Part shown: in pieces, positions 981 through 63,617 of the stretch
Numbering within the stretch: position 1 is the first letter of the stretch
Layout of the letters: each line of letters begins with the position of its first letter
Assembly (NCBI GenBank): GCA_000004985.1
Contig: GG738855.1
DNA: 64,000 nt
Strand: one strand, 5' to 3'
DNA from: Naegleria gruberi
Lineage: Eukaryota
Program-made: the position numbers and the translations under genes
The notes under the pieces: generated by a model
What the model was told of the DNA's origin: nothing
Seen by the model: the letters and a program-made list of their open reading frames with translations, nothing else
The model's database searches: none

Positions 981-992
981 TTGGCGCCAAAA
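981..992. promoter_or_regulatory. Palindromic E2F-like element TTGGCGCCAAAA in the divergent promoter between the p23 and NEK genes
   Basis: Perfect 10-bp palindrome TTGGCGCCAA inside a very AT-rich spacer. The same 10-mer recurs at 9334, 31509 and 57692, always in 5' intergenic DNA. Confidence 0.5.
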
Positions 993-1094: not shown

Positions 1095-3117
1095 ATGAAT
1101 ATAAATATAATGGGTTTTCAGGATTATGATATTATTGAAGAGCTAGGATCTGGTTCCTACGGAAAAGTTTTCACTGTTCGGGATCGAAGAACTGGAGAAA
1201 TTTGTGTTCAGAAAATTGTTAGCCTAGATGGAGTTGATGAAAAGGATAGAGAAGAAACATTAAATGAGGTTCGTAGGAGTAATTATAATACAGTGCATTG
1301 ACTCTGAATAGGCTCGTTTAATGAGCCAGTGTGAACATTTCAATATCATTAAATATTTGGACTCTTTCATCGAGAATAACTACCTATGTATTATTATGGA
1401 ATATGCATCTGGAGGGGATCTGACAAAGAAAATTAAAGCACAACAGGGAAAACCATTCAAGGAAGATTTAGTGTGGAACTTTTTGATACAGATATCTCAA
1501 GGGTTGAAATATTTGCATGACAAGAGAATTTTGGTAAGTTTGTAAATTATTACAAATATTAAACTGATCACATATTATAGCACAGAGATCTTAAACCTCA
1601 AAATATATTTCTAGATGCAGAGGATAATATTAAAATTGGAGATATGGGTTTAGGAAGAATACTAGGACCTCAATCCTCTTTCGCCTCATCAAATGTAGGA
1701 ACACCTCTTTATCAAAGCCCTGAGCTGTGTCAGGAAAAGCCTTACAATCATAAGAGTGACATTTGGGCTTTTGGATGTCTTTTATATGAGCTAGCAGCTT
1801 TTTCACCTCCATTCTTAGCAACAAATCAGATAGCTCTAGCAAAGTAAGTCTCTTTGTTATACTAAATATACTTATGTTATAATAGGAAAATTGTTGGTGA
1901 TAGACCAAACAGTCTTCCCAAAATCTATTCTATGGAACTTCAATTTTTAATATTTAAAATGTTAGAAAAGGAGCCAAGTAAGAGACCAGATATAAACCAA
2001 ATATTGAATTATTCGGCTGTAAAGTTGAGAATTCAAAAGGCTAAGCTTAGACACAAGGAGTTAAAATTGAAGGAGCAATTTTTAACTTTGGAAAAACAAT
2101 TGAGAATGGATTATGAGACAAAAATTGATATGCTCGAAAGGAAACTCTCTGATTACAGATACCAGGAGGAGCAAGTGCAAATGGAAAGAGAAAATATTGT
2201 ACGTAAATAATTCTTAACATGGAATCTAATAATTTGTTATCTCACAACAGAGAGAAAGAGCTCAAGAGCTGGATAAGAAAGAGAATGGGCTGAGAGAACT
2301 CGAGGAAAAACTGCTGAGAAAGCAACACCAACTCAATGAGCTCATAAAACATGGGCATGTTATTATTTCAACACCAAATTCTGGGATTGGTCCCACCATC
2401 ACACCAAGCATACCATCGCCATTTACTTCGCCTGTGAAAGAGCACGGGACACCACAGAGAAAGGTCGACAGTAAATATTATAAACCTGAAACAACTAAGG
2501 TAGTACAAGAAAAGTTCAACTCACTCTATAACATGTTCCATGAACAACAACCAAATAATAGTCCTAATGCTCAGAAAGCTCGATCAGCACCATCAACACC
2601 TGTTAAAAAGCGAACCGATGCAGTTCCAAAGACTCCAAGCCCTAAACCTGTTCACAGACCAAAGAGCAATGGCAATGCTCCTCTTGAACACACACCAAAA
2701 CAAAAACGAAAGAATTCCAATCCTCCATCAACACCAAATGTAAACTCTTCCCAGGTGAGTGTTGGATCCTCAGTCCAGTTAGACTCTAAATTTGTTGGTA
2801 AGGTAATGGGTAAAATAATGCAGAAGAAGCAAACTACTGAGACACCACTAGGAAATAAGGGAAGAAAGCTAGGTATGGGAGGTTCTCCAGATGAAGGTTT
2901 GGTTGATAATAGGGTAAAGAAAAAGTTATCATTTGAAGAAAGTGAACCAACCTTATTCAGACCAATGCCAAGAACATCGCCCACATCAAGGCACTTTGAC
3001 TTTAGAATTTCAGAACCCAAAATAGAGATTGAAGAGTTCAATTCAGATGAAGAAAACTCAGAAGAAGACCTGTTCGTTTTAAGGAGGAAACTGAAAAATG
3101 AAGAACTAAACAAATAA
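1095..3117 (+). CDS. NIMA-related (NEK) Ser/Thr protein kinase with C-terminal coiled-coil and S/P/K-rich tail; 5 exons
   Basis: Exons about 1095-1268, 1312-1533, 1581-1843, 1886-2198 and 2251-3117. Donors are GTTCGT/GTAAGT/GTAAGT/GTACGT, acceptors are AG, and frames were checked against the track ORFs. The spliced product reads GSGSYGKV..CVQKI..LNEARLMSQCEHFNIIKYLDSF..IIMEYASGGDL..HDKRILHRDLKPQNIFL..IKIGDMGLGRIL..GTPLYQSPELCQEKPYNHKSDIWAFGCLLYEL, which is a NEK catalytic domain. The initiator could instead be the ATG at 1110. Confidence 0.85.
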
Positions 3118-7592: not shown

Positions 7593-7801
7593 TTTTTTTG
7601 TCTTTTCTTAGGAATGAGAGAAATTGTAATTTTGATGATAATTATAACAATATTGTTCGGAAATATCGGAATATTATTGGTTACTATTTGGTTTAATAAT
7701 GAAAGAATTGTTTATTGAATCAGTAACAATTTACAAAAAGATATCTTTTTGCATCATCATTACTCTTTGAACTTTTCGAATAAAAAACAAAATACAAAAA
7801 A

Positions 7802-9208
7802 ATGAAATCGTCCACTTTAATAATATTCATATGTTCACAGGCACTGTTTCTAGCACTGTCAGCACTCACATTTCGATTATATCTATCATCAAAAAACAAT
7901 GAAAAATGTTCAATTTCTTTTTTAATATTGACAGCTCCACGTCAAATGGATGGCAATAGTTTTTATTATCTAGGACAAACAATTAATAGTATTGCTAAAT
8001 TAAAACAACGATTATTCAATCCATGTATTGTAATATTCAATAGCAAGGGAGAAGCTTTTAAAGAAGAAGTTGAATTTATGGTGAGAGGTTCAGCTCTCGA
8101 TGCACAAGTAACAATCTATCACAAGAAGAAGGAATGGGAAAGTAATAATTTTGATAATTCACAATTATCACCTCGGAAGAAACATCAATCCAATGATTTT
8201 TATGATATGATCAAGACGGTTGATTCAAACTTTAGAGTGAAGGATAATACTCCAATTGCCATCATGGAAGATGATTTTATAATGTGTGAAGGAGCTTATT
8301 ATCATTTTGGTAGGATTTTTGAAAAGATTCATGAATTGGAATCGAGTGGAAAGGATTGGGTTGGTTATCGATTCTCCTTCGGTCTGAATGGTGTGCTAAT
8401 TCAGAGAAAGGATCTTGGCAGTATGTTGAGATTTTTGGAGAGAGAATCTGAAACTGATACACCAATTGATTGGCTATTGGAACAATACTTCCATCAATTG
8501 AATCATTATGGAAAATTACGTTTCCAAGACAGATTATTCTATATTTATAGATATCAATTAATGAAACACATTGGTGTCACATCGTCTGTTGGAAATGAGA
8601 GAAATATTGAGAGAAATAATGTTGATTTTCCAAATTGTATGGAACCTCAAACACAATCTCAACTTTTAGTACTGTTCCAGGCAGAGGCATGTCCAAACTC
8701 ATACTTTTTCCCGTGTAATGATACCCTAACTGGATCCAATACACTCACCAAAAGAATTCCAAAGTCAAGTATGGCAGGAGGTATTCCATATATTGACGAT
8801 AAGGACTATGAGTTTGAACATGATACTCTTCGATTGCCTTCCTATTCATCCTCAAATCCTTTACCATTGGTTGAATTGAAGAAAGTGAGAAGTGTTCCAT
8901 GTGATGCATCAGAGAGTTGTTCAACATGTTGTGAACGATTGGGCTCAGTGTGTGAACCTCAATTCTTTTCCTATATTAATAGATGTGATGAGTTGAAACG
9001 ATATGCACCAAATTGTAAGTGCATGTATGAGAGAAATCCTGTTTTGGACTCTAGCTCACCTCTCCTTGATGGAGACTATTGCATTCTTGGTTCAAGACCA
9101 AGCAGATTCAGATGTAAAAATCAAATGGATGGCAAACGAAGATTGTGTCCATGTTTCAGGGAGAAACAAAACTCATTCGATAGGTCAAGAAAGACTTCCA
9201 ATAATTAA
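7802..9208 (+). CDS. Type-II-membrane/secreted protein with DxD-containing (glycosyltransferase-like) domain and C-terminal Cys-rich module
   Basis: ATG at 7802. N-terminal hydrophobic signal/anchor (LIIFICSQALFLALSALTF). An EDDF motif precedes an aromatic-rich core. The C-terminal roughly 110 aa contain about 16 Cys (CDASESCSTCCERLGSVCEP..CKCMYER..CPCF). Family not recognised. Confidence 0.5.
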   Translation: MKSSTLIIFICSQALFLALSALTFRLYLSSKNNEKCSISFLILTAPRQMDGNSFYYLGQTINSIAKLKQRLFNPCIVIFNSKGEAFKEEVEFMVRGSALDAQVTIYHKKKEWESNNFDNSQLSPRKKHQSNDFYDMIKTVDSNFRVKDNTPIAIMEDDFIMCEGAYYHFGRIFEKIHELESSGKDWVGYRFSFGLNGVLIQRKDLGSMLRFLERESETDTPIDWLLEQYFHQLNHYGKLRFQDRLFYIYRYQLMKHIGVTSSVGNERNIERNNVDFPNCMEPQTQSQLLVLFQAEACPNSYFFPCNDTLTGSNTLTKRIPKSSMAGGIPYIDDKDYEFEHDTLRLPSYSSSNPLPLVELKKVRSVPCDASESCSTCCERLGSVCEPQFFSYINRCDELKRYAPNCKCMYERNPVLDSSSPLLDGDYCILGSRPSRFRCKNQMDGKRRLCPCFREKQNSFDRSRKTSNN

Positions 9209-9333
9209 TAAATCTTGAATTTAAAGAAAATATCAAGGTGAGGAACTGATATTGTAATATTGTTTCAAGGTGTGAAGAACTCATTACGGTTATCCAAATC
9301 TTAGGAGAAAAGACAAAACGTAACGGTTTGGAA

Positions 9334-9343
9334 TTGGCGCCAA
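9334..9343. promoter_or_regulatory. TTGGCGCCAA palindrome (E2F-like) about 150 bp upstream of the UBE2S-type E2 gene
   Basis: Exact 10-mer palindrome in 5' intergenic DNA. The downstream gene is a cell-cycle (APC/C) E2 orthologue type. Confidence 0.5.
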
Positions 9344-9493
9344 GAATAAATGCTCATCAGACGTTATTTAAAATTCAAAAAAAAACTACAACACTCTTCA
9401 AAGGTCGTTTGCAGTACATCTTGACGACGACTATTAATTTTAGGAAGACTATCTTCATCTCTTCTATTTATACAATTATAATAATTTAATACA

Positions 9494-10195
9494 ATGAGTA
9501 CTTTCTTGCCACCAAATACACTCCAAAGAGTAACCAAGGAAATTTTCGACCTTCAAAAGAACAAGATTGATGGAATTGAAATTCTCACCTATGATCCTGT
9601 TAGAAATGTAGACTTGTTGAGTGATTTGAGCGAGATTTATGCTTCTATTGATGGTCCACAAGGTACTCCATTCGAAGGAGGTAAATTTACTATCAAATTG
9701 GTCTTGGATCACGAATTCCCTAATAAGCCACCAAAGGGATATTTCGTTACCAAGATTTTCCACCCAAATGTTTCTACACGTGAAGGTGAAATTTGTGTGA
9801 ATACATTGAAGAGAGATTGGAAGTCTACTCTTGGTTTCAGACATGTTCTCATGGTTATTCGTTGTTTGATGATTGAACCAAATCCTGATAGTGCTCTCAA
9901 TGCTGAAGCAGGTAGACTTATTCAAGATAACTATGAAGGTTATTCAAACAAGGCTAAGATGTTCACAGATATCTATGCCAAACAACAACAAGGTGTCACA
10001 AGTCAATCAGAACCTGAAGTGTCCAAGACCATCTCTGAAGAAACTGTTGTTGATTCCGAAAATGCTAAGGAAAATATTTGTAATGTAAATCAAACCCAAC
10101 AAAAGAAACCACTCCTCTTACTCAAAAAGCCAACTACCACCACAACCAATACTTCTACTGTTGCCAAAAAACCAGCAGGTTTGAAACGTCTGTAA
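9494..10195 (+). CDS. UBE2S: Ubiquitin-conjugating enzyme E2, UBE2S-like, with C-terminal K/T-rich extension
   Basis: ATG at 9494, intronless. The UBC fold reads ..FPNKPPKGYFVTKIFHPNVSTREGEICVNTLKRDWKSTLGFRHVLMVIRCLMIEPNPDSALNAEAGRL.., very close to human UBE2S (HPNVGANGEICVNVLKRDW..LIHPNPESALNEEAGRLL). It has the lysine-rich tail typical of UBE2S. Confidence 0.85.
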   Translation: MSTFLPPNTLQRVTKEIFDLQKNKIDGIEILTYDPVRNVDLLSDLSEIYASIDGPQGTPFEGGKFTIKLVLDHEFPNKPPKGYFVTKIFHPNVSTREGEICVNTLKRDWKSTLGFRHVLMVIRCLMIEPNPDSALNAEAGRLIQDNYEGYSNKAKMFTDIYAKQQQGVTSQSEPEVSKTISEETVVDSENAKENICNVNQTQQKKPLLLLKKPTTTTTNTSTVAKKPAGLKRL

Positions 10196-10312
10196 ATGAA
10201 ATCTTGTGTAAGGATGTCATTCTAAGAAGATCTAGGCAATAAATAATATTATTTAACAACATAATAGGATATTAGAGAAACAAATTTCACTAATTACATT
10301 TTACAGTTTTAT

Positions 10313-12706
10313 TTAAGGAGCTAGTGCTTTAGCAGAAGTATTCACAATACCAGCAAACAAGTATTCCCCACCATCTTGTTCTTCCTTCATTAAATCCCTT
10401 AAGAAAAGAACAGTTTGCTTTTCAGTATTTTCAATTGATCTATCAATTTCAGCCTCTAATTGATTTCCTTCATATACTGCAGAGGTTTGTTTTCCTTCCA
10501 AAACCCAACTTTCAAATTGGAGAGCCTTAGCATGAGCAATTTCCTTTGTTGGAGCCAAAATACGATAGGCACGCTTGTATAAACTCTTTCTCTTATCTTC
10601 AGAAAGATTCTCGAAAACTTCAACCAAAATATCGTGAAGCAAGAAAGGTAAATCAAAGTTATAGTCTCGTCTGGCAACTTTTTCACAATAATCGAAAATC
10701 TTTTCCTTCTCTATTAATGATTTGGTAATTTCTTCCGTGGCAGTATCCTTATTCATTCTATGAATAATGTAGCTACCATGAATGGATCTGAGTTGAGCCC
10801 AAATCTTGAATTTGTTTTCAAAACAGTCTTCATTTCTTGAAAGAATAATTACAATATTTTCAAGGTATGATTCGAATTGTTCCTCTCTATTGAGTGCATG
10901 ATTTGAGTGTTCCCTCATTTGAGTAACAGCAAATCTCAACAAGTGGAGAGCTTCATTAATAATAACTTCCTTGAAGTTGAAGAAATGTACAGATAATTGA
11001 TTCCAAATTTGAGGGTGATTTTCCTTGATATTAGTTTCAAATGTCAATACATGAGTAATTGACATTAATAAATTATCCCAAACTTGAGCAAATTCGTCCC
11101 AACCAGAGTTTTCACTTTCTTCGCTCAAAAATCCCTTAATGAAAGAAAGTTGAAGTTTGCAAAGTTCAGAACATGCTTGAATTTCGACCTTATCCTTGAG
11201 AAGTTGAAGCATGGCAGATGATGGTTGATCACCAACACTTGGAATTTCATCAGAGAACATTCCAATGCTTTGACCAATACCTGTACCAATGTCAAGCAAT
11301 CTCTTGATTGTCTTTAATCTTGATGGAATATCTAGTGCATTATTTTGAGCTTCTTCACTTTCTTCTTCTTGTTCAGGTTGTTTCTCTCGTTGTTTAACAA
11401 GGAGCATCTTTCTTAAAAAGATTGACCATTCATAGGAAAGTACTACAGAATCTAATACAATTTGTTGACTGGTGAATTTAGGATGCAAAGACTTTTCAGC
11501 AGCAGGTAAGCTGTTCAATTGTCTAGCAGTAAGAAAAGTCAAATCTTCGTAACAAGAATCAGCTGATTTCCATTCATTTGCCATTGTGTACAAATATCCA
11601 AGTTTGAGCAATGATGTCTTGAGTTCGAACAAGTTTAGGCTATCAGATGCAAAGTTAATAGATGCAGGATTCTCTTTTGGAAGAAGCTTTTTAAGGTGAT
11701 CAGCTGAACTCTTAAAATCTTGCACTCTTTCGAATAGAATTGAAAGTCTCTTATCCAAATCTCTAATGTACTGTTCAGTAGATGCTATATGTTTGATAAC
11801 GTCTTGAGTTGAGGAAATGTTTTTAAGAATATTTAGAACCTCTTCCAATTTTTGGTATACAGCAATGAGAGTATTTACAGCATTTCTCAATTGTCCTTCA
11901 CGTTCATAAACAGCTGAGAGTTGGAAATATGTACCAAAAATGCTCATCACAAGATTTTCATTTCTTTTTTGCTCCAAGAAGGATTCTACAACAATTCTGG
12001 TTGCGAATGATGATGCATCATATTGGAAGAAGAGTAATTTTTGAAGAATAATCTTGCTCAATGATGTACATTGAAGAATATTGTAAATTCCGTTCATCTC
12101 GTTCAAATATTTGATAATTTCCTCTTTAGCTTTTTTAACAGTTTCAACATTTTCAGGAAGATGAGAAAGGTCTGTCTTTCTCTTTATCAATGATTGCAAC
12201 TTGCTTGTGGAAAAGCTCAATTTTGATAAATCTGCCAATTTACTATCATCCTTCTTTGACAATTCATGTTCCTTCAAGTATTGTGATGCTACTTGGAGTG
12301 CAATAAGTTGTGGATATATATCTTCGGCATCAGGTCTATCGGCCATATATTGTTTAGAAACATAAACAATACCGTCTATTGTTTTGGTGAGTGTCTCTGT
12401 GAGCGCTTTCTTATCATCTGTAGCATTCTTCCAGCTATAGAGTTGAATAATAAGAGTTTGTAAATGAGTTTGAGTCCACTTTGCTACAGTTTCATCATTT
12501 AAATCGGAAATATGATATTCATTTGCTTGACCAAGGTTTGTATCATAATGATAGGAATTAAAACAAGTGCCAGTTAAAGATGTTGTTGTTTTCAAACAAT
12601 TAATACTATTATGCTTAATTGATGATGATCTATTGTTGGTAACCAATAACGAAGATGAAGAAAGAGTCTTTGGCCTGAAAACCCTTTTCACGATGTGATT
12701 TTTCAT
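10313..12706 (-). CDS. Hypothetical all-alpha-helical protein (797 aa); family not recognised
   Basis: Long uninterrupted ORF with helical-repeat character. N-terminal S-rich segment. Track start is non-ATG; the real start is undetermined. Confidence 0.5.
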   Translation of the reverse strand: MKNHIVKRVFRPKTLSSSSLLVTNNRSSSIKHNSINCLKTTTSLTGTCFNSYHYDTNLGQANEYHISDLNDETVAKWTQTHLQTLIIQLYSWKNATDDKKALTETLTKTIDGIVYVSKQYMADRPDAEDIYPQLIALQVASQYLKEHELSKKDDSKLADLSKLSFSTSKLQSLIKRKTDLSHLPENVETVKKAKEEIIKYLNEMNGIYNILQCTSLSKIILQKLLFFQYDASSFATRIVVESFLEQKRNENLVMSIFGTYFQLSAVYEREGQLRNAVNTLIAVYQKLEEVLNILKNISSTQDVIKHIASTEQYIRDLDKRLSILFERVQDFKSSADHLKKLLPKENPASINFASDSLNLFELKTSLLKLGYLYTMANEWKSADSCYEDLTFLTARQLNSLPAAEKSLHPKFTSQQIVLDSVVLSYEWSIFLRKMLLVKQREKQPEQEEESEEAQNNALDIPSRLKTIKRLLDIGTGIGQSIGMFSDEIPSVGDQPSSAMLQLLKDKVEIQACSELCKLQLSFIKGFLSEESENSGWDEFAQVWDNLLMSITHVLTFETNIKENHPQIWNQLSVHFFNFKEVIINEALHLLRFAVTQMREHSNHALNREEQFESYLENIVIILSRNEDCFENKFKIWAQLRSIHGSYIIHRMNKDTATEEITKSLIEKEKIFDYCEKVARRDYNFDLPFLLHDILVEVFENLSEDKRKSLYKRAYRILAPTKEIAHAKALQFESWVLEGKQTSAVYEGNQLEAEIDRSIENTEKQTVLFLRDLMKEEQDGGEYLFAGIVNTSAKALAP

Positions 12707-12978
12707 TTTTTTTAAAATTTATTTTTATTCCTTTCCGAACTTTAATTTCCAGTTTGATTGTTGTTCTTATCCGTATTGCATGATTTTGAAAAGAGGGTAG
12801 ATGAAATTTAATGCCACATGTGGCTTACTCTGCTTTACAATGAGAAGAGATGATGATATTTAATGTAGGTGAAACACAAAGCTGTTTTAGTAGATAGGAA
12901 TAGCATTCACCACTTGTTGGAATCAAAAGTTTTTGCCGCCTTTTTTTAAATATCAAACGAATTGAAAATCAAAACAAA

Positions 12979-17670: not shown

Positions 17671-19938
17671 ATGCTTCAAAAATCAACAAGAAGAATTTCA
17701 TCACTTTATGCTGGTTGTGGTCGTATTTCATCAACACCATCATCATCGGGAGTTGTACTCAACACTAATAGTTCAATCAAAATAATTAACCATCAATACA
17801 GATGTTATAATAATCATTTGGCAAAATTAAATCGTCTATCGGAATTATCAAATAATAACAAGAAACAATTTAAAAATCATCGTGATAGACAATATCAACC
17901 AATGGATAACATTGAAACACCAAAGGAAGTAAAGAATGATGTAACTACAGAATCCTATACTAAAATATTGAAAAAGTTCTTCTTAAAGGTTCACCCTGAC
18001 TTTTTCCAACAAGATCCACCAAAACAACAACAAAACAAGGAGTCCTTCTCAAAATTGAACGAACTTTTAAATTGGACTAACGAATATACCCAATTAACAC
18101 TTGATAATAAGAATTTGAATGAAGAGGAAATAGCTGACCTGGAAAAGAGATTGAATAGACTTGGTCCTATTCCAAGCGTTGATGAATCATTTGTTTTCTA
18201 TGTTAAGGAAACTGGAAGACAAAAATCTGAACCATTTAGAATTGAAGTTTTGTTTTCTTTACCAAAGAAGGTTCAATTCAATGGAAAATTAAAGAGTAGA
18301 TTGATTTTAACTCAACGTTTGGAAGAATTAGTAACTTCACTTTTGGAAAAATCAAAAATCATAACTGCTGAGGAAGCTAAAGCAAGAAGAGACATTGCTT
18401 TGGAACAATACAGAGAAATGGAAGAGTCCGTGGGTTCAAAGGGTAAGAAGACCTATAAATCACTGAAAGAAGAGTTACGTATGGCTCTCCAAAATAATTT
18501 ACAAGGAGCAGTCAACCTTGAAAAATTAAGAAGAGGTGAAGAAGATGATGAAGAATGGTGGTGGGATAAAGACTTGCCATCCATTGAACACTTGGTTACA
18601 CACGGCATGCTCTTCTTCTCTAAGAATATTACAGCAGAACAAACCATCAAAGCTATGAATCAATTGAAGAATGGTCTTGGTGAGATGAGATATTATGAAT
18701 GGAGTGATATTCCATTAATGATTACAGAAAAAACTGGCAAGTATGCTGTAAATGATCCTGTTGATGGGTTCATTTGCATTCCTTATGACTTTACTCCATT
18801 CGATTTTGTCAAGGAAATCATTACCAACGAAAAGAACATGACACTCCTCGTTGAAAAACGTGAATTGACAAGAAAAAAGGCCGAAGCTATTCAAAACATT
18901 AGAGAAAAACTTATTGAAGAAGTTGGTTTCTCTGATTTAACCATTTCACCAGAATTGACCTCAGAAGAACTCTATACATTTATTGAAAACTTTGAAAAGA
19001 GATACTTAAGTAATGACAAGATGAAATTGTTACTGAAAGACCTCTGTATCATCATTGATAACAAGTATTCAGCAAGTCCAGATGGATACATTTCAATTCA
19101 TTGGAACTTTATGCACAATGGAAAGGACAATATGTTCGAATTTTTGAAAGATTTAGGAGCTCAAAAAATCAAGAATATCAAAGATATGGGAAGAACTCTC
19201 AGCAATCTTAAGAGAGCATGTGTTTCACTCGGTGAAGAACTCATTGATAAACTTAAATGTAAAGAACTCAATTTGACAACCTATGCCGATTTGAACGAAT
19301 CCAATATGAAACGGTATCAAACTCTCCCAGTTACCCACGAATATATGAAACGATTGAGAGAATGTTGCCTCTTCTTGGAACGTTATGATTGGAGCACACA
19401 TACTTTCTATTTGGTCAATACTTTGGATTTACCTAAAGGTTTCAAACTTCCACTCAAACAAGTTCCTCATGTCAAGACAGAGGCCGATGTTAAGAGTTTA
19501 ATGAGAAGAATGACAATATATGGTGATACTATCATTGATATGGGCGCCAGAGCAGTCTATATTCCTGTAAACTTTACTGAAAATCAATTGTTCGAAACAG
19601 TCAACAAATATTGGAAGATGATTGAAAAACCTCAATTGCAATTGGATGGTGATGATTTTACAGATGTTGTAGATCCTCAAGGATTCCAACAATATAGAAA
19701 TTTGGCCTCTGAACTCGTCAAACAAGCTGAGTTTATGCTGACAAAGAAGAGAGCAGAAAGATATCAACAATTGGCTGAATTCCTCAACAGTCTTGAAGAT
19801 CAACAATTGTATGGTAAGGGTGCCAATAGTATTATGGAAGCAGCACTAGATAGACAAGAAGATGAAAGATATATCAATCTGTATCGTACTTGGTTCAGAA
19901 TTAGAGATATTCCATTAGATGTTTTTGAAACTCAATAA
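17671..19938 (+). CDS. Hypothetical protein with mitochondrial-presequence-like N-terminus and a J-domain-like HPD segment
   Basis: ATG at 17671, only 39 bp after the RhoGEF stop on the same strand. N-terminus MLQKSTRRISSLYAGCGRISS. Segment ..YTKILKKFFLKVHPDFFQQD..FSKLNELL has an HPD tripeptide in a J-like context. No confident family assignment. Confidence 0.5.
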   Translation: MLQKSTRRISSLYAGCGRISSTPSSSGVVLNTNSSIKIINHQYRCYNNHLAKLNRLSELSNNNKKQFKNHRDRQYQPMDNIETPKEVKNDVTTESYTKILKKFFLKVHPDFFQQDPPKQQQNKESFSKLNELLNWTNEYTQLTLDNKNLNEEEIADLEKRLNRLGPIPSVDESFVFYVKETGRQKSEPFRIEVLFSLPKKVQFNGKLKSRLILTQRLEELVTSLLEKSKIITAEEAKARRDIALEQYREMEESVGSKGKKTYKSLKEELRMALQNNLQGAVNLEKLRRGEEDDEEWWWDKDLPSIEHLVTHGMLFFSKNITAEQTIKAMNQLKNGLGEMRYYEWSDIPLMITEKTGKYAVNDPVDGFICIPYDFTPFDFVKEIITNEKNMTLLVEKRELTRKKAEAIQNIREKLIEEVGFSDLTISPELTSEELYTFIENFEKRYLSNDKMKLLLKDLCIIIDNKYSASPDGYISIHWNFMHNGKDNMFEFLKDLGAQKIKNIKDMGRTLSNLKRACVSLGEELIDKLKCKELNLTTYADLNESNMKRYQTLPVTHEYMKRLRECCLFLERYDWSTHTFYLVNTLDLPKGFKLPLKQVPHVKTEADVKSLMRRMTIYGDTIIDMGARAVYIPVNFTENQLFETVNKYWKMIEKPQLQLDGDDFTDVVDPQGFQQYRNLASELVKQAEFMLTKKRAERYQQLAEFLNSLEDQQLYGKGANSIMEAALDRQEDERYINLYRTWFRIRDIPLDVFETQ

Positions 19939-31303: not shown

Positions 31304-31508
31304 GATGAAACAATAATACTACCAATACTACTACAAGGGTGTAAAGGTTTAATATACACGAAAAAGGATTATTGCCAATCCCTTAGTTTGTTGTTCGGAT
31401 ATTGATGATGAAATGGCCAGCGTGTTAGTTCAGCTTGCCCAATGATGATATTTTCTTTTATAAATATTGAAAGGCAGTAAATTTTACGGTTTTTCATCTC
31501 TATGTCTA

Positions 31509-31518
31509 TTGGCGCCAA
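31509..31518. promoter_or_regulatory. TTGGCGCCAA palindrome (E2F-like) in the divergent promoter between the CK1 and GAF-domain genes
   Basis: Exact 10-mer; flanked by ..TATGTCTA and CGCCTCTCATG. Confidence 0.5.
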
Positions 31519-37813: not shown

Positions 37814-38041
37814 GATTCTTTATTTGCCAAATCCAAATGAAATTCAAAATATCCTCCGTCAAAATAAATTTAAAAATGACAAGTGAATCTCAATTTAAGT
37901 AAGAGAGAATAAAGGGATTGAAATCATTGAATTTGTAATGCTCGCCCTTAGTTTAGAGTCATACAGACAGTGCGCGTATGTTATAATGTTTCACCTCTTA
38001 AACATGCAATATTCAAATTTAAACAAATCAAATAGAGAAAG

Positions 38042-40948: not shown

Positions 40949-41911
40949 CTAATTGAAAATCTTCCAAATGCCTCTGATTGACTTTTGGTGAACAGCATAT
41001 GGAACCTCAAGAAGACCTCTCAACATTTTCATAATATCTAACCCCATTGTTAAACCGATAATACCAGCAATAGAACCCAATAAACCTGGAATATCTGTCG
41101 ATAGGACTTCATCAATAACTTGAACATCAAGCGTTCCATAAGAGACAGAGATAATAATATCTGCAGAACTGGCATTCGATATTTTGATTTGTGACAAGGT
41201 TGGCTCCCACAGTGTAGTTGAATTCCCATCAAGAAAGTTCTTTGTCACCTTATTCAGAGTATACATATTATCCTTGTATGGAGAAGCAAATTGTGTCTCT
41301 GCAAAAATGTCAGCTTCAGCAGCTATTTCATGGAATGAAATCTGAGCACCATATTTCCCTGCAGTAGGAGCTTTCATTTTAAAGTTCAATGATATTGATC
41401 CTCCAAATCCTGCAGTTGATGTTGTCTTAATACTCTTAATTTCATTATTAAGAAAATAACAATTAAATTTCAGTCCAGAAGTTACAATCTCCTTCTTTTG
41501 ATTTGTAATGGTTGTTGAAGACTTTACTCCAGAGCTGGAGTAAGAATAAGCTCCAGTAAAAGTAATATCACAATAATCACAAGCTTCGGAAGGAGGCTTG
41601 GCATTATAATTACAAATGGTCATCCCAGGAAATTCCATCTTATCCTGAGTGACATACGAGATTGTTGTTGTAGGCTGGTTTTTACTCTTCTCATAGGTAT
41701 CCGATACGTCATAAATATACCAGCCACTAAATCCTAGAAAAATCAACCAACCAATAATTGCGAAAATATCCCTTACTGCAAATTTCCATTTCTTTTTAGG
41801 AGCAGCTGGAGCAGAAATTTGTATACCTATTTTCTCTCCAACCTTTTCAACTCCTTCTACAAGAGTATGCACGGGAACAGTTGAATTCATTTTTTTAAGC
41901 ATGTAGTTCAT
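40949..41911 (-). CDS. Compact two-TM membrane protein with ENaC/degenerin-like motifs (paralogue 1)
   Basis: ATG at 41911. TM1 (IFAIIGWLIFLGFSGWYIY) is followed by ..DKMEFPGMTICNYN.. (compare ENaC/ASIC post-TM1 FPAVTxCN). A Cys-containing ectodomain follows. Pre-TM2 ..GSIAGIIGLTMGLDIMKM.. resembles ENaC/ASIC GG..GLF.G.S.L. About 320 aa. Confidence 0.45.
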   Translation of the reverse strand: MNYMLKKMNSTVPVHTLVEGVEKVGEKIGIQISAPAAPKKKWKFAVRDIFAIIGWLIFLGFSGWYIYDVSDTYEKSKNQPTTTISYVTQDKMEFPGMTICNYNAKPPSEACDYCDITFTGAYSYSSSGVKSSTTITNQKKEIVTSGLKFNCYFLNNEIKSIKTTSTAGFGGSISLNFKMKAPTAGKYGAQISFHEIAAEADIFAETQFASPYKDNMYTLNKVTKNFLDGNSTTLWEPTLSQIKISNASSADIIISVSYGTLDVQVIDEVLSTDIPGLLGSIAGIIGLTMGLDIMKMLRGLLEVPYAVHQKSIRGIWKIFN

Positions 41912-42035
41912 ATTGTATTTGGGGTGTTTCTACAGAGAGTGTATGAACTTGAACATAAAAGCGGGAGATGAATGGCTTCTCGATTATGTTTATTAAATTC
42001 ATAATGTATTATATTACATTGTTGGTTATTAAACC

Positions 42036-42977
42036 TTAATTCAAAGCTTCATAGACCAGTCTGTGTTGTTTAGTTTTGACTGCTTCGAATATAATAAACC
42101 CAACTCTTATCATTTTTAGGAGATCCAGGCCGAACAATACACCCAACATACCAGCAATTTCTCCCATCAATTCAGTCCAAGTTTTAGACTCGAATTCATT
42201 TCTAGTTGTAATGTCCAATTTACCATAACCAACAGAAACCACAACTGTTCCATCAGAATAGTTAATTAATTTTACAGAAGACTTCACTGCCTTATAGAGT
42301 GTGTTATCAGTTCTATACTCGACTGATGTCTTTAATCTCTTAATGTTCTCTAAAGAGAGAGTGAAAAAGTTATCATCTCCAACTGATGCAAAATTGAACT
42401 TGGCATGGTCATTATCGACAGAAACACCTTCATCATAAGTATTGAAAAATACATAAAGACCAGCTCTTTTAAGACTATTAATCTTTGAGAAATCATCAAG
42501 TGTAAACTCAAAAGCAATTGATCCACCATATCCACTTTGATTTGATTTGTATTTTGATTTTCCATCTCCATTAAATGTAAAACACTGATACGTGTAGACA
42601 GTACCTGCCTGTGTTACTGTAATTTTTGATGATGAAAGAGTTTCAGTGCAACTCCCTCCAGGAATTGTGCATCCAGTAAAACTTAGTGCTGTATCTGGTA
42701 TTGATGAACAAAATGTTGTCTTGGGAAAGTTCAATGATGAATAAGAAGTGACATCCACTGATACTGGAGGATGGGTCTGAAGATAAGAGTAGCCAGATAT
42801 AACACTCCACATATAAACTCCCAACATTGCAATACTTCCTAGCCATCCGAAAATTACAAGAAATTCTCCATAAGTGTATCCATATTTCTTCTCAAGCTCA
42901 TCTCTTGCTCCTTCTCCACTTCCATCATCGGAATCTTCTTCTGCTCCTAAAACATCAACAGGTTGATCGGTGGTCAT
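42036..42977 (-). CDS. Compact two-TM membrane protein with ENaC/degenerin-like motifs (paralogue 2)
   Basis: ATG at 42977. Acidic N-terminus. TM1 (FLVIFGWLGSIAMLGVYMW) ..SLNFPKTTFCS.. Cys-rich ectodomain ..ELMGEIAGMLGVLFGLDLLKM.. TM2. Same architecture as, and clear paralogy with, 40949..41911. Confidence 0.45.
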   Translation of the reverse strand: MTTDQPVDVLGAEEDSDDGSGEGARDELEKKYGYTYGEFLVIFGWLGSIAMLGVYMWSVISGYSYLQTHPPVSVDVTSYSSLNFPKTTFCSSIPDTALSFTGCTIPGGSCTETLSSSKITVTQAGTVYTYQCFTFNGDGKSKYKSNQSGYGGSIAFEFTLDDFSKINSLKRAGLYVFFNTYDEGVSVDNDHAKFNFASVGDDNFFTLSLENIKRLKTSVEYRTDNTLYKAVKSSVKLINYSDGTVVVSVGYGKLDITTRNEFESKTWTELMGEIAGMLGVLFGLDLLKMIRVGFIIFEAVKTKQHRLVYEALN

Positions 42978-43282
42978 TCTCTATTTCTTCTCTATGTATC
43001 CCTTAATGATGAAAATTTATTAATTTTTTTGAATATGAACTTGTTATTCCCGCGCATTGTACTCTGGAGACATTATTGTAGTGCGATTGATCAGAATGGC
43101 TTGAGGGTTTTGAGGTGAAAGAATGGAAATTGAGCTCCAACTAAGAATAAGTTCCCATTTCAAATAATTGTCAATGGCTCAATGGATTGTTGAGCTTGTA
43201 TGTCAAATTATCACTGTGGCAAAGATTAGACCAAAGAATTCAAGTTTGGTTGCTATGTTTGTCTAAACTTATTGTACTCTAA

Positions 43283-43972
43283 ATGTTTGGTGAAGGAAGA
43301 AAAGAAAAAATGTCATCAAGCAACAACACTCATTCATCATCATCTTCCCTTCTCTTGGATATTGAAGACAATTTGAACAAAAAGAAAGAAAATTCAAATC
43401 CTATTAGTAAACCATCCTTTCTCAAATTATCACAGCAACAAGATGGCACAAATGAAGGAATGCCTAGATTTGCTCCTTCCGAGCTCTTGTCCAGACTACA
43501 AAGCTTTTTACCACAAATTAAAGAAGCAAACGAAAAGCTAGAAAGTGGTGAAGTTGAAGGCTTTTCGGATTGTGTTGAAATTATTGAGAATGATGATGAG
43601 GAGGAACAAGATGGTGCTCAACTTCAAGAGGAAAATTATAATGATGAAGAAGAATCCGAACATAAACCCTATGTGGAGATGAATGTAGTATTGGGAGTAT
43701 TAGAACAAAAACAAAAAACAAGCCTAATTACAGATATAGATGGACCAACAGAGGATGAACAAAAATTGGAAGAAAAAGATGAAGTTGTAAATTTGAGAAT
43801 TGGAAAGGATTTTACTCCACAAGAAAGCAAAAATATTGAACAGGATATGGTGGCATATATGAATATTATGAATTCTCTTCTCGGTTCTTCATCAGCATTG
43901 AAAAGAAAACGAGTAGAGGACAACAGTGATAGTGGCAGTAGTGGTGATAGTAGTGACAGTGATCAAGATTAG
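43283..43972 (+). CDS. Acidic hypothetical protein (229 aa) with S-rich ends
   Basis: Track ORF; ATG at 43283 or an internal Met. Conserved-looking segment FAPSELLSRLQSFLPQIKEANEKLESGE is followed by D/E-rich tracts and a C-terminal SSGDSSDSDQD. Its 3' end overlaps the convergent TPR gene by 4 nt. Confidence 0.4.
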   Translation: MFGEGRKEKMSSSNNTHSSSSSLLLDIEDNLNKKKENSNPISKPSFLKLSQQQDGTNEGMPRFAPSELLSRLQSFLPQIKEANEKLESGEVEGFSDCVEIIENDDEEEQDGAQLQEENYNDEEESEHKPYVEMNVVLGVLEQKQKTSLITDIDGPTEDEQKLEEKDEVVNLRIGKDFTPQESKNIEQDMVAYMNIMNSLLGSSSALKRKRVEDNSDSGSSGDSSDSDQD

Positions 43973-46650: not shown

Positions 46651-46788
46651 TACTAACTGAAATAACAGTCTAGGAGCTATCTGTTACTACTCAACAAAAA
46701 TAGTTTCCCGCCAATCAGAGTACAAATTTCAAATCAAAAAAAAATTCAACTTTGGATTTTTAATCTCCATTATACTGCACTGTTGTAT

Positions 46789-47787
46789 TATGAGCTGCTA
46801 TTTTAAACCTATTGGTGATGCTAAGGTAGGTTGGGAATATATTGTATGATGATGATGGTCTAATTATTCTTTTGTTTTAATTTAAATCAAAATAACAACA
46901 ATAGATTTTGGAGAAGAAGGCACCATCAAGTGTTTGTTTTAAAGATGTAAGATCATCACTGGATACAGGAAAAGTAAAAAAGAAGGATGATTCAGGTAAG
47001 TTCAAAGATCTTGAATGTTTCCGAACATTACTTTCCTAACAACAGGCGATTCTAAATTATTTAAAAAAGTTGAAAACTTTAAGAGAATGAAAGGAACTGA
47101 ATTAATGAAACTCATTCTTCTCAAATTAAATTCGCAAAATAACACCTCACAAACAGAGCCTCTAGAACATGCTCCACCATCACCAAGTGGATCAAAAAGC
47201 TTGTATTCATCTATGGCTTCTTGCACATTCTCTGAAGCCAAATTAGCAGTGCATCAATCTGATCCAATCCTTGTAAAAACCAGATTGAAGGAAGATGTTC
47301 ATGATGTGGATAATATGGTACTCTTATTGGATGTTAGAGATACAGATGAATATTCAGTATGTCACATCCAGACAGCTTATAGATATCCAGCTGCTACAGT
47401 GAATAGAACTGTTAATCCATTTACACCTGAAATGCTTTCTTTTGTAAGTGTTTAAATCTTTAAAATTGGAACCTTATTGGAATTATTAAGAAAAATCATC
47501 CTCTCAAAAAAATTGTAATATATGACAGGGACGAAAAGATTGCTTGTCCTGCTGCCAACCTTCTCTTTGAAAAGGGTTTTGATAATATTGTAGTTCTTAG
47601 TGGAGGCTTACAAGAATTCTTCCAAAAACACCCAGAGCTCATTGTTGGAGAAGTGCCAAAGGAATGGTATCCTCCTGTTCTAAAGAAGAAAACAAGACCT
47701 CCTTCTGTCGCTAGCTTGAACTCAACAAAGAAGGCTTCGATTACAAAAGAGAAGACGAAATCAACAGGACCAAAACCATTCAAGTAA
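46789..47787 (+). CDS. CEP41: Centrosomal protein CEP41-like (rhodanese domain), 4 exons
   Basis: Exons about 46789-46824 ([12 protein letters not shown]), 46905-46995, 47046-47443 and 47491-47787, all with GT..AG boundaries and consistent phases. The product contains ..[25 protein letters not shown].. and the rhodanese core [41 protein letters not shown]|[49 protein letters not shown]. This is close to human CEP41 ([68 protein letters not shown]). Confidence 0.8.
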
Positions 47788-50477: not shown

Positions 50478-51865
50478 TTACTTTTCATAAATTCTATGCA
50501 AATAAATGGTTAGTGGTTCATATTGATCAGTGGCTTCTTCAATGTCAAAACAGTAAGCTTTTGGATATTTTGGTGGTTCTTTTGAAGAGATAGATAGTCC
50601 CTCTGATTCGGCCTCTACTCTTGATATTCCACAAAATGTTTGAAGAGATTCAACAAGGGATGTTGCATTTTCACTCAAAGGATACTCAATTGAATCATTT
50701 TCTGCCTTCTTTCTCCTTTCGTTTGTATAAATTGCTTGTTGATGAAAGGAAAAAATGTTTTCTTTAGTTTCTGATAAGGCAACATCTATTTTGATTCCAC
50801 TCCATTCAGTATCATACTCCTCTGAATCAAATCTATTATCCCTTATTGTAAAGTAGTGTAAATTATCCTTATTGGGAGTATCACATGATTGTCTCATCAT
50901 TTTCTTGAGGAGATCAATAGGAGAACGGTCAATTTGAATTTTCATTGAACGATTGCCAGAGAGAGAACCATCCCAACTACGTAATTGACCCTTCTTGATT
51001 TGTACTGGCTTGTTTGGTTTAACCTTGAGTTTCCAACTCAAAATCATTTCATCTGAATTACCTCCAGGATATCGACTGAATAAAAATTAATAAACTCATT
51101 GAATTAAGAAACATACTCTAGTGCCATGAATAGAATACTGATTGATAGTGAGCAATTCTTCTTGTACTCTTCAACAACAGATGGTAGATTTGAGGTTAGG
51201 TGAACACTAAATCTAGGATCCACCTTCTTACTTCTCATCACTTGTACAAACTCATTTCTATTCATCATATCACAAATGCACGAGTTAAACTTTCCATACA
51301 TTCTAGAATTCAACACTGCCAAATTTGCAAATGATTCAGCATTGAGAAACTTTGAAATTTCATAAATCAAATCATTGGTAAACTCTTCCAATGCACTTGT
51401 TCGTGTGAGTGTTGAGCTTGACATTTTAATCTTTTTAGAAAGATTTTCCTCTTCATCAATTGTAATTTCCAAACTTCTCTTCTTCTCTTGTTTTAACAAT
51501 TCCTCAATTCTTTTCTTATCATTGGCTTTTAATTTTTTTAATCCGTGTATTTCGTGATTCTTCAATTTTTCAACCAAATCATCATCTTTGATATATTCTA
51601 AATTAAATATTATTTGTTATTGATGATGATGGTGGTGTGTGATTATAAAGTATTTACCTTCAAAATTGTACCATTCTGGATAATTTCCACCAAAACTATC
51701 AACCTCTGATCTGACAATCTTTCCAATCCTAAGAACACTTTGTGGAATATTCTTGCCAGTCAACTTGCATTTTGATCGGCTTGATTTACTGTACTCGATC
51801 ATATAATCACCTAGTGGTGGAAATTCAGGCATTTTTTCTTGTGTTTTCTTTCTGTTTGCAAACAT
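50478..51865 (-). CDS. Hypothetical protein with degenerate PARP-type zinc-finger-like N-terminus and F-box-like segment, 3 exons (51865-51658, 51597-51117, 51075-50478)
   Basis: ATG at 51865. Exon 1 reads ..YMIEYSKSSRSKCKLTGKNIPQSVLRIGKIVRSEVDSFGGNYPEWYNFE, matching the zf-PARP pattern (..Y.KS.R..C..C...I.K..LR......S..FDG....WYH..C) but with the second Cys and the H..C pair replaced. Introns of 59 and 41 nt (GTAAAT..TTTAG; GTATGT..ATTCAG) join in frame to ..EYIKDDDLVEKLKNH.. and ..DRYPGGNSDEMILSWKLK... Total about 428 aa. Confidence 0.45.
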
Positions 51866-52151
51866 TTCTGGTTTTTATCTGTGGCCACTGGATGGTTGTT
51901 TGGAAGTAAAAGAATAGAAATTGTAAACTAATGAAAAGTGCGCGCAACGGGATGTGTTTGTGTTGTTTCTGCGAGTCAATTTTGTAAAACTCATGCTGGG
52001 GTTGAATTTATTTTGATACAATGTTATTGAAAAAGCTGACAAACAAACCTTATTGGAATATTTCACACACCACAAAAGAAAATTAGGAATCACAAATTGA
52101 TAAGGACCTTAACGATTCTTACTATACGCACATCAATAGTGAAAACAATAT

Positions 52152-54906: not shown

Positions 54907-55005
54907 TTTTTTATTTGAATGAAAATTGTACTCTACTTTTGGCGGGAAAGTTTATTCAACCTCCCAACTGTTATCAAGACTTAAAACAGAGGAAATATAT
55001 TTTGA

Positions 55006-57690: not shown

Positions 57691-57701
57691 TTTGGCGCCA
57701 A
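57691..57701. promoter_or_regulatory. TTTGGCGCCAA palindrome (E2F-like) in the divergent promoter between the CaaX-ending gene and the PAP2 gene
   Basis: Exact TTGGCGCCAA 10-mer, preceded by T-rich runs. Confidence 0.5.
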
Positions 57702-57997
57702 CTCCTTTCAACGGCAACAAAGGGCCTGTTCTTTTTTCTAAGGACAAACCATATCAATCCTATGATACGATAACGTATTAATAAATTAATTTGTTTGATT
57801 CAGATCTACAGGATTCTTAGAAGATATATAATACTCTTTGTAAGGAATTGAAAATGATCTCTTCAATATTGAACTAGATACTTTGTTACTACCATATATC
57901 AGCCCAACTCACGGCAATTTATTTAATAATCGTGATAGACCTTGAAATTAGAGGCCTTGAAATTGTTGGCAGGGAAGATGCGTATGGCAAATAAAAA

Positions 57998-63129: not shown

Positions 63130-63617
63130 ATTAGAGGTCAAGTTTGAAAATAGACCATATTGTTTTGGTGAAGAGTGGAAGAATCTCACTTGTTGTTGAT
63201 TGTATTGTTGAAGAACATTTGGAGCCCAACATTCTTGTTATTTGATGAAAATAAACTTGTATGATGGCACAAGGCTGGTGAAAATACTTCCGATGATGAA
63301 AAGACAATTTTACAGTGATGATGTGTGTTGGCTGTCTTTAAAAATCGTGAGAGGAGAGAACGACTATTACTTTTAAACATTTTTTTCTAATCTGTGTTGT
63401 TTTATTATTATAATTGTTTCTTCATGTATCTAATTGATGTGATGATAACAAATTGTTGTACTATTAGATATTATGAACGACGACAATTAAATAATTAATA
63501 TTATATTATAGTTTTTATTGTTTGAAAAAGGTGTCGAAAATTAAAATCAACCAAAACAAAGACCCATTTTGGTTAATATTGTTGTTATTGTTGGTGTTAA
63601 AAGGTGGTAGAGTAGAA

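What the first reader, a model, noticed from the sequence alone, without database searches (positions are those of the whole stretch)
981..992. Perfect palindrome TTGGCGCCAA recurs four times, only in 5' intergenic regions (E2F-like sites)
The GC-rich 10-mer TTGGCGCCAA occurs at 981, 9334, 31509 and 57692 in a window that is about two thirds A+T, where a given GC-rich 10-mer is expected well under once. All four lie in short promoter spacers. Three of those spacers are divergent (p23/NEK, CK1/GAF, CaaX-gene/PAP2) and one is upstream of the UBE2S-type E2. The sequence matches the classic palindromic E2F/DP site (TTTSGCGCSAAA). NEK kinase and UBE2S are textbook cell-cycle-regulated genes. Weaker CGCGC-core variants sit in other promoters: ATTCCCGCGC at 43046, GTGCGCGCAA at 51938, GTGCGCG at 37970 and TTTGCCGCC at 12932.
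Basis: partly seen in the sequence, partly recalled or inferred. Interest (0 to 1): 0.65.

Follow-up and report, generated by a model that had tools for sequence, protein, structure and literature searches.

The report
E2F-type promoter sites in Naegleria
A GC-rich 10-base palindrome sits in four promoter spacers of this Naegleria gruberi region and is almost certainly a binding site for the amoeba's own E2F/DP cell-cycle transcription factors; this is a familiar kind of element, but I found no earlier report of it in this deep-branching lineage.

Summary
TTGGCGCCAA occurs exactly four times (981, 9334, 31509, 57692) against about 0.011 expected, and it is the most over-represented 10-mer in the window. 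All four copies lie in promoter-facing spacers, 107-206 bp from the nearest start codon, and their flanks are unrelated.

The window is Naegleria gruberi. Published sequence sets include N. gruberi E2F, DP, DEL and RB. The E2F and DP recognition helices are identical to those of human E2F4/DP2 in the DNA co-crystal.

Eight of nine TTSSCGC matches are in promoter spacers. The same motif class is promoter-enriched in 161 kb from other heteroloboseans.

It recurs in UBE2S promoters of several taxa, always beside a Myb-like TAACGG element. However, the exact 10-mer is not conserved in the N. fowleri or N. lovaniensis UBE2S promoters.

Binding and cell-cycle co-regulation remain untested. Cryptosporidium shows the same two motif variants without phase-specific expression.

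Verdict: a real cis-element, a new member of a known kind, of moderate interest.

The parts
981..990 (.). TTGGCGCCAA palindrome, site 1; 114 bp upstream of the NEK2-like kinase ATG (1095+), in the 730-bp spacer between the p23/CS gene (ATG 364-) and NEK
9334..9343 (.). TTGGCGCCAA palindrome, site 2; 160 bp upstream of the UBE2S-type E2 ATG (9494+), in a tandem spacer 126 bp after the stop of the Glyco_transf_18 gene
31509..31518 (.). TTGGCGCCAA palindrome, site 3; divergent spacer between the CK1-like kinase (ATG 31303-) and a 990-aa ORF (ATG 31926+)
57692..57701 (.). TTGGCGCCAA palindrome, site 4; divergent spacer between an 859-aa ORF (ATG 57585-) and the PAP2-family gene (ATG 57998+)
46704..46714 (+). 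TTTCCCGCCAA, a canonical asymmetric E2F-type site overlapping a CCAAT box, upstream of the rhodanese-domain gene (ORF from 47015+; a probable short first exon has its ATG near 46789)
54937..54949 (-). TTTTGGCGGGAAA (sense strand TTTCCCGCCAAAA), a canonical E2F-type site 31-43 bp upstream of ATG 54906(-) of a coiled-coil protein gene
43047..43055 (.). TTCCCGCGC, an E2F-consensus match in the divergent spacer between the ASC/ENaC-like gene (ATG 42977-) and NOPCHAP1 (ATG 43283+)
12932..12940 (.). TTTGCCGCC, a weak E2F-like match in the divergent spacer between a 797-aa ORF (ATG 12706-) and a Myb-like gene (ATG 12979+)
9320..9329 (+). GTAACGGTTT, a Myb/MSA-like element 4 nt upstream of site 2; the same element is conserved in UBE2S promoters of other heteroloboseans
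31484..31492 (+). TTACGGTTT, a Myb-like variant 16 nt upstream of site 3
57709..57714 (+). CAACGG (Myb consensus YAACGG), 7 nt downstream of site 4
51938..51950 (+). GTGCGCGCAACGG, a GC box fused to a Myb-like CAACGG in the spacer upstream of the ORFs at 50478-51577(-)
1095..3117 (+). NEK2-like kinase gene: 5 exons, 4 introns of 42-52 nt, 612 aa
9494..10195 (+). UBE2S-type ubiquitin-conjugating enzyme gene, 233 aa, single exon

Best explanation
The four TTGGCGCCAA copies are promoter-proximal binding sites for Naegleria gruberi's E2F-family winged-helix factors. These are the single E2F-DP heterodimer and/or the two-domain DEL (E2F7/8-type) protein. Each half, TTGGCG and CGCCAA, would be read by one RRxYD recognition helix. 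Because the site is a perfect palindrome, the dimer can sit in either orientation, which suits spacers that drive two divergent genes (three of the four). Together with the asymmetric variants TTTCCCGCCAA and TTTTGGCGGGAAA in other promoters, they form one motif family. By analogy with animals and plants, occupancy would be repressive while the RB-type pocket protein is bound and activating after CDK phosphorylation. At the UBE2S, CK1-spacer and 859-aa/PAP2-spacer sites a Myb-like ACGG element within 4-16 bp suggests joint E2F-Myb control of the kind that times G2/M genes. What is shown: the sequence match, the statistics, the promoter location, the presence of the factors with conserved DNA-contact residues, and recurrence of the motif class in related species. 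What is inferred: actual binding, the sign of regulation and the cell-cycle timing.
For: Over-representation and exclusive promoter location. Eight of nine TTSSCGC sites lie in the 12.8% of the window that is promoter-facing, binomial about 6e-7 (my arithmetic). CGCCAA, GCGCCAA and GGCGCCAA are the only non-AT-rich k-mers enriched in promoter spacers. None of these sites lies upstream of the housekeeping genes in the window: IleRS, LeuRS, eIF1, thiolase, TsaE, SRP54. The organism is N. gruberi. NgruE2F, NgruDP, NgruDEL and NgruRB are in PMC4862756 source data. NgruE2F aligns to 1CF7 chain A at E=7e-25 with [24 protein letters not shown] identical; NgruDP aligns to chain B at E=1e-28 with KNIRRRVYDALNVLMA identical. 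By my reading, the NgruE2F C-terminus (EGEGVSDLF) resembles the pocket-protein-binding motif. In 161 kb from other heteroloboseans, 7 of 17 TTSSCGC sites are in promoter-facing spacers, P=0.0034, and all are 15-131 bp from an ATG. They include TTTTGGCGCCAAAA 15 bp upstream of the Willaertia RNase H2 subunit B gene. Three of seven non-gruberi UBE2S promoters carry a strict E2F match: Naegleria sp. L090, Acrasis kona and L093. The Acrasis and L093 sites lie 5-12 nt from TAACGG. A 99.1%-identical environmental strain keeps the site while nearby spacer bases differ. Cryptosporidium parvum has the same two variants, DTTGSCGCCH and TTTGGCGGGAAV, which its authors assigned to E2F (PMC3734150).
Against: No binding or expression data exist here. 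The exact 10-mer is absent from the UBE2S promoters of N. fowleri and N. lovaniensis, and GGCGCC is absent from 41 kb of those two species. Measured against the promoter-specific background rate, UBE2S conservation is only P about 0.02 (my arithmetic). Several flanking genes have no evident cell-cycle role: PAP2, the ASC channel, NOPCHAP1 and the unknown ORFs. In Cryptosporidium, E2F-like motifs do not track any expression phase, so 'E2F site' need not mean 'cell-cycle regulated'. The window is strongly CpG-depleted, so some promoter enrichment of CpG-containing words could be passive.
Confidence: 0.75

Rival explanations
1. The sites are bound by E2F-family proteins but act as a general promoter element, unrelated to cell-cycle phase. 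This was proposed for Cryptosporidium, where E2F-like motifs precede most genes.
For: E2F-like matches occur in about 8 of 24 promoter-containing spacers of the window. They flank genes with no obvious cell-cycle role. In C. parvum the same variants lie upstream of 2,379 genes with no preferred expression time.
Against: Housekeeping promoters in the window lack the motif: aminoacyl-tRNA synthetases, eIF1, thiolase, SRP54. The two clearly annotatable targets are mitotic-type genes, NEK2-like and UBE2S. N. gruberi retains RB, unlike Cryptosporidium. A Myb/MSA-like element lies adjacent to three of the four palindromes and to the GC box at 51938.
Confidence: 0.15
2. The palindrome is the site of a different, unidentified Naegleria DNA-binding protein that recognises GGCGCC-type palindromes, and the resemblance to E2F sites is coincidental.
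For: All four copies are identical over exactly 10 bp, and the outer T/A flanks expected of TTTGGCGCCAAA are only partly present. No one-mismatch variants occur in promoters. The palindrome is not seen in the N. fowleri and N. lovaniensis loci.
Against: The asymmetric variants TTTCCCGCCAA and TTTTGGCGGGAAA in other promoters are what an E2F family predicts, not a strict-palindrome reader. The E2F and DP recognition helices are unchanged. The motif class is promoter-enriched across heteroloboseans. No alternative family with this specificity is known; NFI needs a 5-bp spacer and is, to my knowledge, metazoan-only.
Confidence: 0.07
3. Chance recurrence, a fragment of a dispersed repeat, or passive survival of CpG-rich words in unmethylated promoter DNA, with no sequence-specific function.
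For: CpG o/e is 0.40, and GCGC words in general are promoter-biased: 9 of 16 occurrences.
Against: Expected 0.011 copies against 4 observed; 0 of 100 shuffles gave a match. The flanks are unrelated. Passive CpG retention cannot produce four identical 10-mers.
Confidence: 0.02

Closest known systems
Canonical E2F/DP binding sites of animals and plants (TTTSSCGC; palindromic high-affinity form TTTGGCGCCAAA; E2F4-DP2-DNA structure 1CF7, E2F8 structure 4YO2)
   Same: The central 10 bases are identical to the palindromic site. The asymmetric TTTCCCGCCAA and TTTGGCGGGAAA variants are also present. The location is promoter-proximal. The host encodes E2F, DP, DEL and RB with unchanged RRxYD recognition helices.
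   Different: The outer T/A of the 12-mer is not fixed. No binding, occupancy or expression data exist. The recognisable targets are G2/M-type genes (NEK2-like, UBE2S) rather than the classic G1/S replication genes. To my knowledge, in human cells those two genes are controlled mainly through CHR elements.
E2F-like motifs of Cryptosporidium parvum (DTTGSCGCCH and TTTGGCGGGAAV; Oberstaller et al. 2013, PMC3734150)
   Same: The same two sequence variants occur in a compact, AT-rich protist genome with short spacers, inferred from over-representation alone.
   Different: C. parvum lacks RB, and the motif precedes most genes with no expression pattern. N. gruberi has RB, and the motif is absent from housekeeping promoters in this window.
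Composite E2F plus Myb control of G2/M genes (plant MSA elements AACGG with MYB3R/E2F/RBR DREAM-like complexes; animal DREAM/MMB with CDE/CHR). Cited from my own knowledge.
   Same: A GC-rich E2F-like box lies 0-16 bp from a Myb-consensus ACGG element at three of the four palindromes and at 51938. The pairing recurs in UBE2S promoters of most of the eight taxa examined.
   Different: There is no fixed spacing or orientation. No CHR (TTTGAA) stands at the canonical 4-nt distance. MuvB and R1R2R3-Myb components in Naegleria were not examined, and no paper linking them was found.
NFI/CTF palindrome TTGGC(N5)GCCAA
   Same: The same half-sites, TTGGC and GCCAA.
   Different: The half-sites abut with no 5-bp spacer. 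To my knowledge the NFI family is restricted to animals.

Membership tests
E2F/DP binding site | Sequence matches TTTSSCGC or the palindromic TTTGGCGCCAAA | tested here: met
   All four copies match TTSSCGC on both strands and 10 of the 12 positions of the palindrome. Site 1 adds AAA and site 4 adds TTT.
E2F/DP binding site | Lies in promoter-proximal DNA near the start of the regulated gene | tested here: met
   4 of 4 palindromes and 8 of 9 family matches lie in promoter-facing spacers, 31-206 bp from an ATG. Transcription start sites are unknown.
E2F/DP binding site | The organism encodes E2F and DP with intact winged-helix DNA-binding domains | tested here: met
   NgruE2F, NgruDP, NgruDEL and NgruRB are in PMC4862756. 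Alignments to 1CF7 chains A and B give E = 7e-25 and 1e-28, with identical recognition helices.
E2F/DP binding site | Physical binding by E2F/DP (EMSA, PBM, ChIP) | not testable with these tools
   No experimental data are available.
E2F/DP binding site | Target set enriched for cell-cycle or replication genes, with periodic expression | tested here: inconclusive
   The NEK2-like kinase and UBE2S fit, as do Willaertia RNase H2B and CSE1. The other flanking genes are unknown or unrelated. No expression data were available, and the rest of the N. gruberi genome could not be reached.
E2F/DP binding site | Conservation in orthologous promoters | tested here: inconclusive
   UBE2S promoters: strict match in 3 of 7 other taxa, near-match in Willaertia, a variant GC box in N. 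lovaniensis and L092, none in N. fowleri. P is about 0.002-0.02 depending on the background used. NEK orthologues were not retrievable.
CDE/CHR (DREAM) composite element | E2F-like CDE followed 4 nt later by CHR TTTGAA | tested here: not met
   No CHR stands at a fixed 4-nt distance from any of the four sites. A Myb-like ACGG element is the recurrent neighbour instead.
Dispersed repeat or transposon fragment | Sequence similarity extends into the flanks of the copies | tested here: not met
   The flanks are unrelated over +/-40 bp.
NFI site | TTGGC and GCCAA half-sites separated by 5 bp | tested here: not met
   The half-sites abut directly.

The most novel reading that the evidence does not exclude
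In Heterolobosea, mitotic-type genes such as UBE2S are driven by a composite module: an E2F-type GC box next to a Myb/MSA-type TAACGG element. If this mirrors the E2F-Myb (DREAM/MMB-like) logic of plants and animals, combined E2F and Myb control of G2/M genes would date back to the last eukaryotic common ancestor. Naegleria would then offer a third, very distant lineage in which to test that.
Probability: 0.3. Interest if true: 0.6.

Novelty: new member of a known kind. Interest (0 to 1): 0.4.

Why it matters
Almost nothing is known about promoter grammar in Naegleria or in Discoba generally. Full-text searches found no paper linking Naegleria promoters to E2F sites. These sites are a concrete, testable cis-element with a named candidate factor set (one E2F, one DP, one DEL, one RB). 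They could be used to find the cell-cycle regulon of N. gruberi and of the pathogen N. fowleri. They would also extend sequence-level evidence for the RB-E2F axis to a lineage far from animals and plants. The E2F-Myb pairing, if real, bears on how old the two-wave (G1/S, G2/M) transcription programme is.

Tried and rejected
- The N. gruberi genome could not be reached beyond the window. The NCBI protein P0001 is not in the contig index, and the window's E2 protein retrieved only a 2.6-kb metagenome contig 99.1% identical to the window. Genome-wide enumeration was therefore impossible.
- The surroundings of SRP54 in other heteroloboseans are not syntenic with the window. They served only as background sequence.
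- The single metagenome scan, run with a UBE2S alignment, returned 80 loci with at most 64% identity. Most were short contigs from other eukaryotes and none was useful for footprinting.
- The last protein search, run with the spliced NEK, missed Naegleria orthologues. The best hits were Andalucia and other 'nek2' proteins. The N. fowleri hit P0272 is a 48%-identical paralogue matching the kinase domain only. Site 1 could therefore not be footprinted.
- The rhodanese-domain gene downstream of 46704 was considered as a possible Cdc25. This was rejected because the domain lacks the catalytic Cys-X5-Arg motif.
- NFI, dispersed-repeat and chance explanations were rejected (see the membership table).
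- No literature was found on MuvB/DREAM components in Naegleria.

Full report
**Observation.** TTGGCGCCAA occurs at 981, 9334, 31509 and 57692 and nowhere else in the window. None of 100 dinucleotide-preserving shuffles produced a single copy. The window is 65% A+T with strong CpG depletion (o/e 0.40). A first-order Markov model expects 0.011 copies, giving Poisson P(>=4) = 6e-10. Among 622 10-mers seen at least four times, this one has by far the highest observed/expected ratio: 359, against 38 for the next. After correcting for about 5e5 possible canonical 10-mers, P is still about 3e-4 (my arithmetic). The flanks of the four copies are unrelated, so this is not a repeat family.

**Organism and gene map.** An SRP54-like ORF at 61642-63189(-) is identical to a Naegleria gruberi predicted protein, apart from a 25-residue stretch that the NCBI gene model removes as an intron. 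The window is therefore N. gruberi. Genes are tightly packed and have introns of 42-52 nt.
- Site 1 lies 114 bp upstream of a five-exon NEK kinase. The best named relatives of that kinase are 'nek2' proteins. The spacer runs 730 bp to a p23/CS-domain gene (ATG 364-) and contains unassigned small ORFs.
- Site 2 lies 160 bp upstream of a UBE2S-type E2, in a tandem spacer.
- Site 3 lies between a CK1-like kinase and a 990-aa ORF.
- Site 4 lies between an 859-aa ORF ending in CSIM and a PAP2-family gene.
- Promoter-facing spacers make up 12.8% of the window, and all four copies are in them.

**The wider motif family.** Scanning for the E2F consensus TTSSCGC gives nine distinct sites.
TTTCCCGCCAA is at 46704, upstream of a rhodanese-domain gene. 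TTTTGGCGGGAAA is at 54937, 31-43 bp upstream of ATG 54906(-) of a coiled-coil protein gene.
- TTCCCGCGC is at 43047 and TTTGCCGCC at 12932, both in divergent spacers. One further site is in thiolase coding sequence.
- Eight of nine sites in 12.8% of the sequence gives a binomial P of about 6e-7 (my arithmetic).
- In an unbiased k-mer comparison of promoter spacers with the rest of the window, CGCCAA, GCGCCAA and GGCGCCAA are the only enriched words that are not A/T runs.
- The promoters of IleRS, LeuRS, eIF1, thiolase, TsaE and SRP54 have no such site.

**Is the factor present?** The source data of Medina et al. 2016 (PMC4862756) contain NgruE2F, NgruDP, NgruDEL (with two DNA-binding domains, E2F7/8 type) and NgruRB.
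- NgruE2F matches the E2F4 chain of the E2F4-DP2-DNA crystal structure 1CF7 at E=7e-25. The recognition helix [24 protein letters not shown] is unchanged.
- NgruDP matches the DP2 chain at E=1e-28, with KNIRRRVYDALNVLMA unchanged.
- The dimerisation and marked-box regions also match E2F4/5-DP1 structures.
- With the DNA-contacting residues identical, the canonical specificity is the expected one. This last step is an inference.

**Related sequences.** The N. gruberi genome itself could not be reached beyond the window. I therefore used loci from N. fowleri, N. lovaniensis, Willaertia magna, Acrasis kona and uncultured relatives.
- In 161 kb of non-redundant sequence there are 17 TTSSCGC sites. 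Seven are in promoter-facing spacers (12.8% of the sequence; P=0.0034), and all seven are 15-131 bp from an annotated ATG.
- One of these is a perfect TTTTGGCGCCAAAA, 15 bp upstream of the Willaertia RNase H2 subunit B gene. Another is GCGGGAAA, 92 bp upstream of CSE1.

**Footprinting the UBE2S promoter across eight taxa gave a mixed answer**.
- The exact 10-mer is present only in N. gruberi and in a 99.1%-identical environmental strain.
- Strict E2F matches occur in Naegleria sp. L090 (TTCGCGCC, -62), Acrasis (TTTTGGCGC, -31) and L093 (TTTTGGCGCGC, -80).
- Willaertia has ATCCCGCCAAAAA.
- N. lovaniensis and L092 share a variant, TTGAGCGCCTT.
- N. fowleri has none.
- Three strict matches out of seven correspond to P of about 0.002 against the overall site density, and about 0.02 against the promoter-specific density (my arithmetic). 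This is suggestive but not decisive.

**A recurrent neighbour.** The best-conserved element of the UBE2S promoters is a Myb/MSA-like TAACGG(TTT). It is found in N. gruberi, N. fowleri (two copies), N. lovaniensis, L092, L093 and Acrasis, usually 4-25 nt from the GC box. Within the window, ACGG-type elements lie 4, 16 and 7 nt from palindromes 2, 3 and 4, and one is fused to the GC box at 51938 (GTGCGCGCAACGG). GCGC occurs only 16 times in 64 kb, so this adjacency is unlikely to be chance. I noticed it after the fact, however, so I treat it as a lead. It recalls the plant MSA/E2F and animal DREAM/MMB arrangement for G2/M genes (my own knowledge). No CHR element stands at the canonical distance, and no literature on MuvB in Naegleria was found.

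**Mechanism.**
- Most likely (0.75): these are E2F-family binding sites. One winged helix reads each half of the palindrome. The symmetry suits bidirectional spacers. RB-dependent repression and CDK-dependent release are inferred by homology.
- Main alternative (0.15): the same proteins bind, but the element is a general promoter signal. This would match Cryptosporidium parvum, where the identical pair of variants (DTTGSCGCCH, TTTGGCGGGAAV) precedes 2,379 genes without phase preference.
- Unrelated factor (0.07) or no function (0.02): both are poorly supported.

**Novelty and verdict.** Searches of the held literature found no report of E2F sites or promoter motifs in Naegleria. The element itself is a well-known kind. 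I rate it a new member of a known kind, with interest 0.4. The most novel reading still open is an ancestral E2F-Myb composite module, at probability about 0.3.

Noticed in passing
window 808, 43057, 43272, 45319, 46717, 54926 (and 51162, in coding sequence): AGAGTACAA occurs 7 times against about 0.8 expected (my estimate), and six copies are in or at the edge of promoter spacers. At 54926 it is 20 bp upstream of ATG 54906(-). It directly follows both asymmetric E2F-type sites. It may be an initiator-like element. It was not found in promoters of the other heterolobosean loci.
   Followed up: partly
window 46704-46735 (+) and 54906-54949 (-): Two unrelated genes share a promoter module of about 30 bp on their sense strands: TTTCCCGCCAA(N2-4)AGAGTACAA(A/T)TTTCA.
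   Followed up: partly
window 9320-9329; L007 about 9812-9860; L008 about 9834-9870; L091 9970-9992; L092 about 9900-9930; L093 1009-1040: A Myb/MSA-like TAACGG(TTT) element is the best-conserved feature of UBE2S promoters across heterolobosean and related taxa, usually next to a GC-rich E2F-like box.
   Followed up: partly
window 61642-63189 (-); L005 10001-11701 and 12627-14327: Outside Heterolobosea, the best matches of the SRP54-like gene are alphaproteobacterial Ffh proteins at about 42% identity. This suggests a mitochondrial-type SRP54. The gene is tandemly duplicated in Willaertia magna.
   Followed up: no
whole window: Strong CpG depletion: CpG o/e is 0.40 against GpC o/e 0.78. The surviving GCGC words are concentrated in promoter spacers (9 of 16).
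   Followed up: no
window 7802-9208, 40949-42977, 43283-43972, 17671-19938: Protein families usually thought of as animal-type are encoded here: Glyco_transf_18 (GnT-V-like), an ASC/ENaC-like channel, NOPCHAP1 and DUF4460/DUF4461.
   Followed up: no
window 47015-47787 (+): The rhodanese-domain protein downstream of the TTTCCCGCCAA site lacks the catalytic cysteine, so it is an inactive rhodanese and not Cdc25. A short upstream first exon with its ATG near 46789 is likely.
   Followed up: partly
L008 16980-17672 (-), N. lovaniensis: A called gene carries an HTH_OrfB_IS605 domain (TnpB/Fanzor-type) beside the UBE2S neighbourhood.
   Followed up: no
L001 (ENA ERZ929261 contig) = window 7753-10373: An environmental metagenome contig is 99.1% identical to the window, pointing to a second N. 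gruberi-like strain. Its differences in the UBE2S spacer cluster downstream of the intact Myb-like and E2F-like elements.
   Followed up: partly
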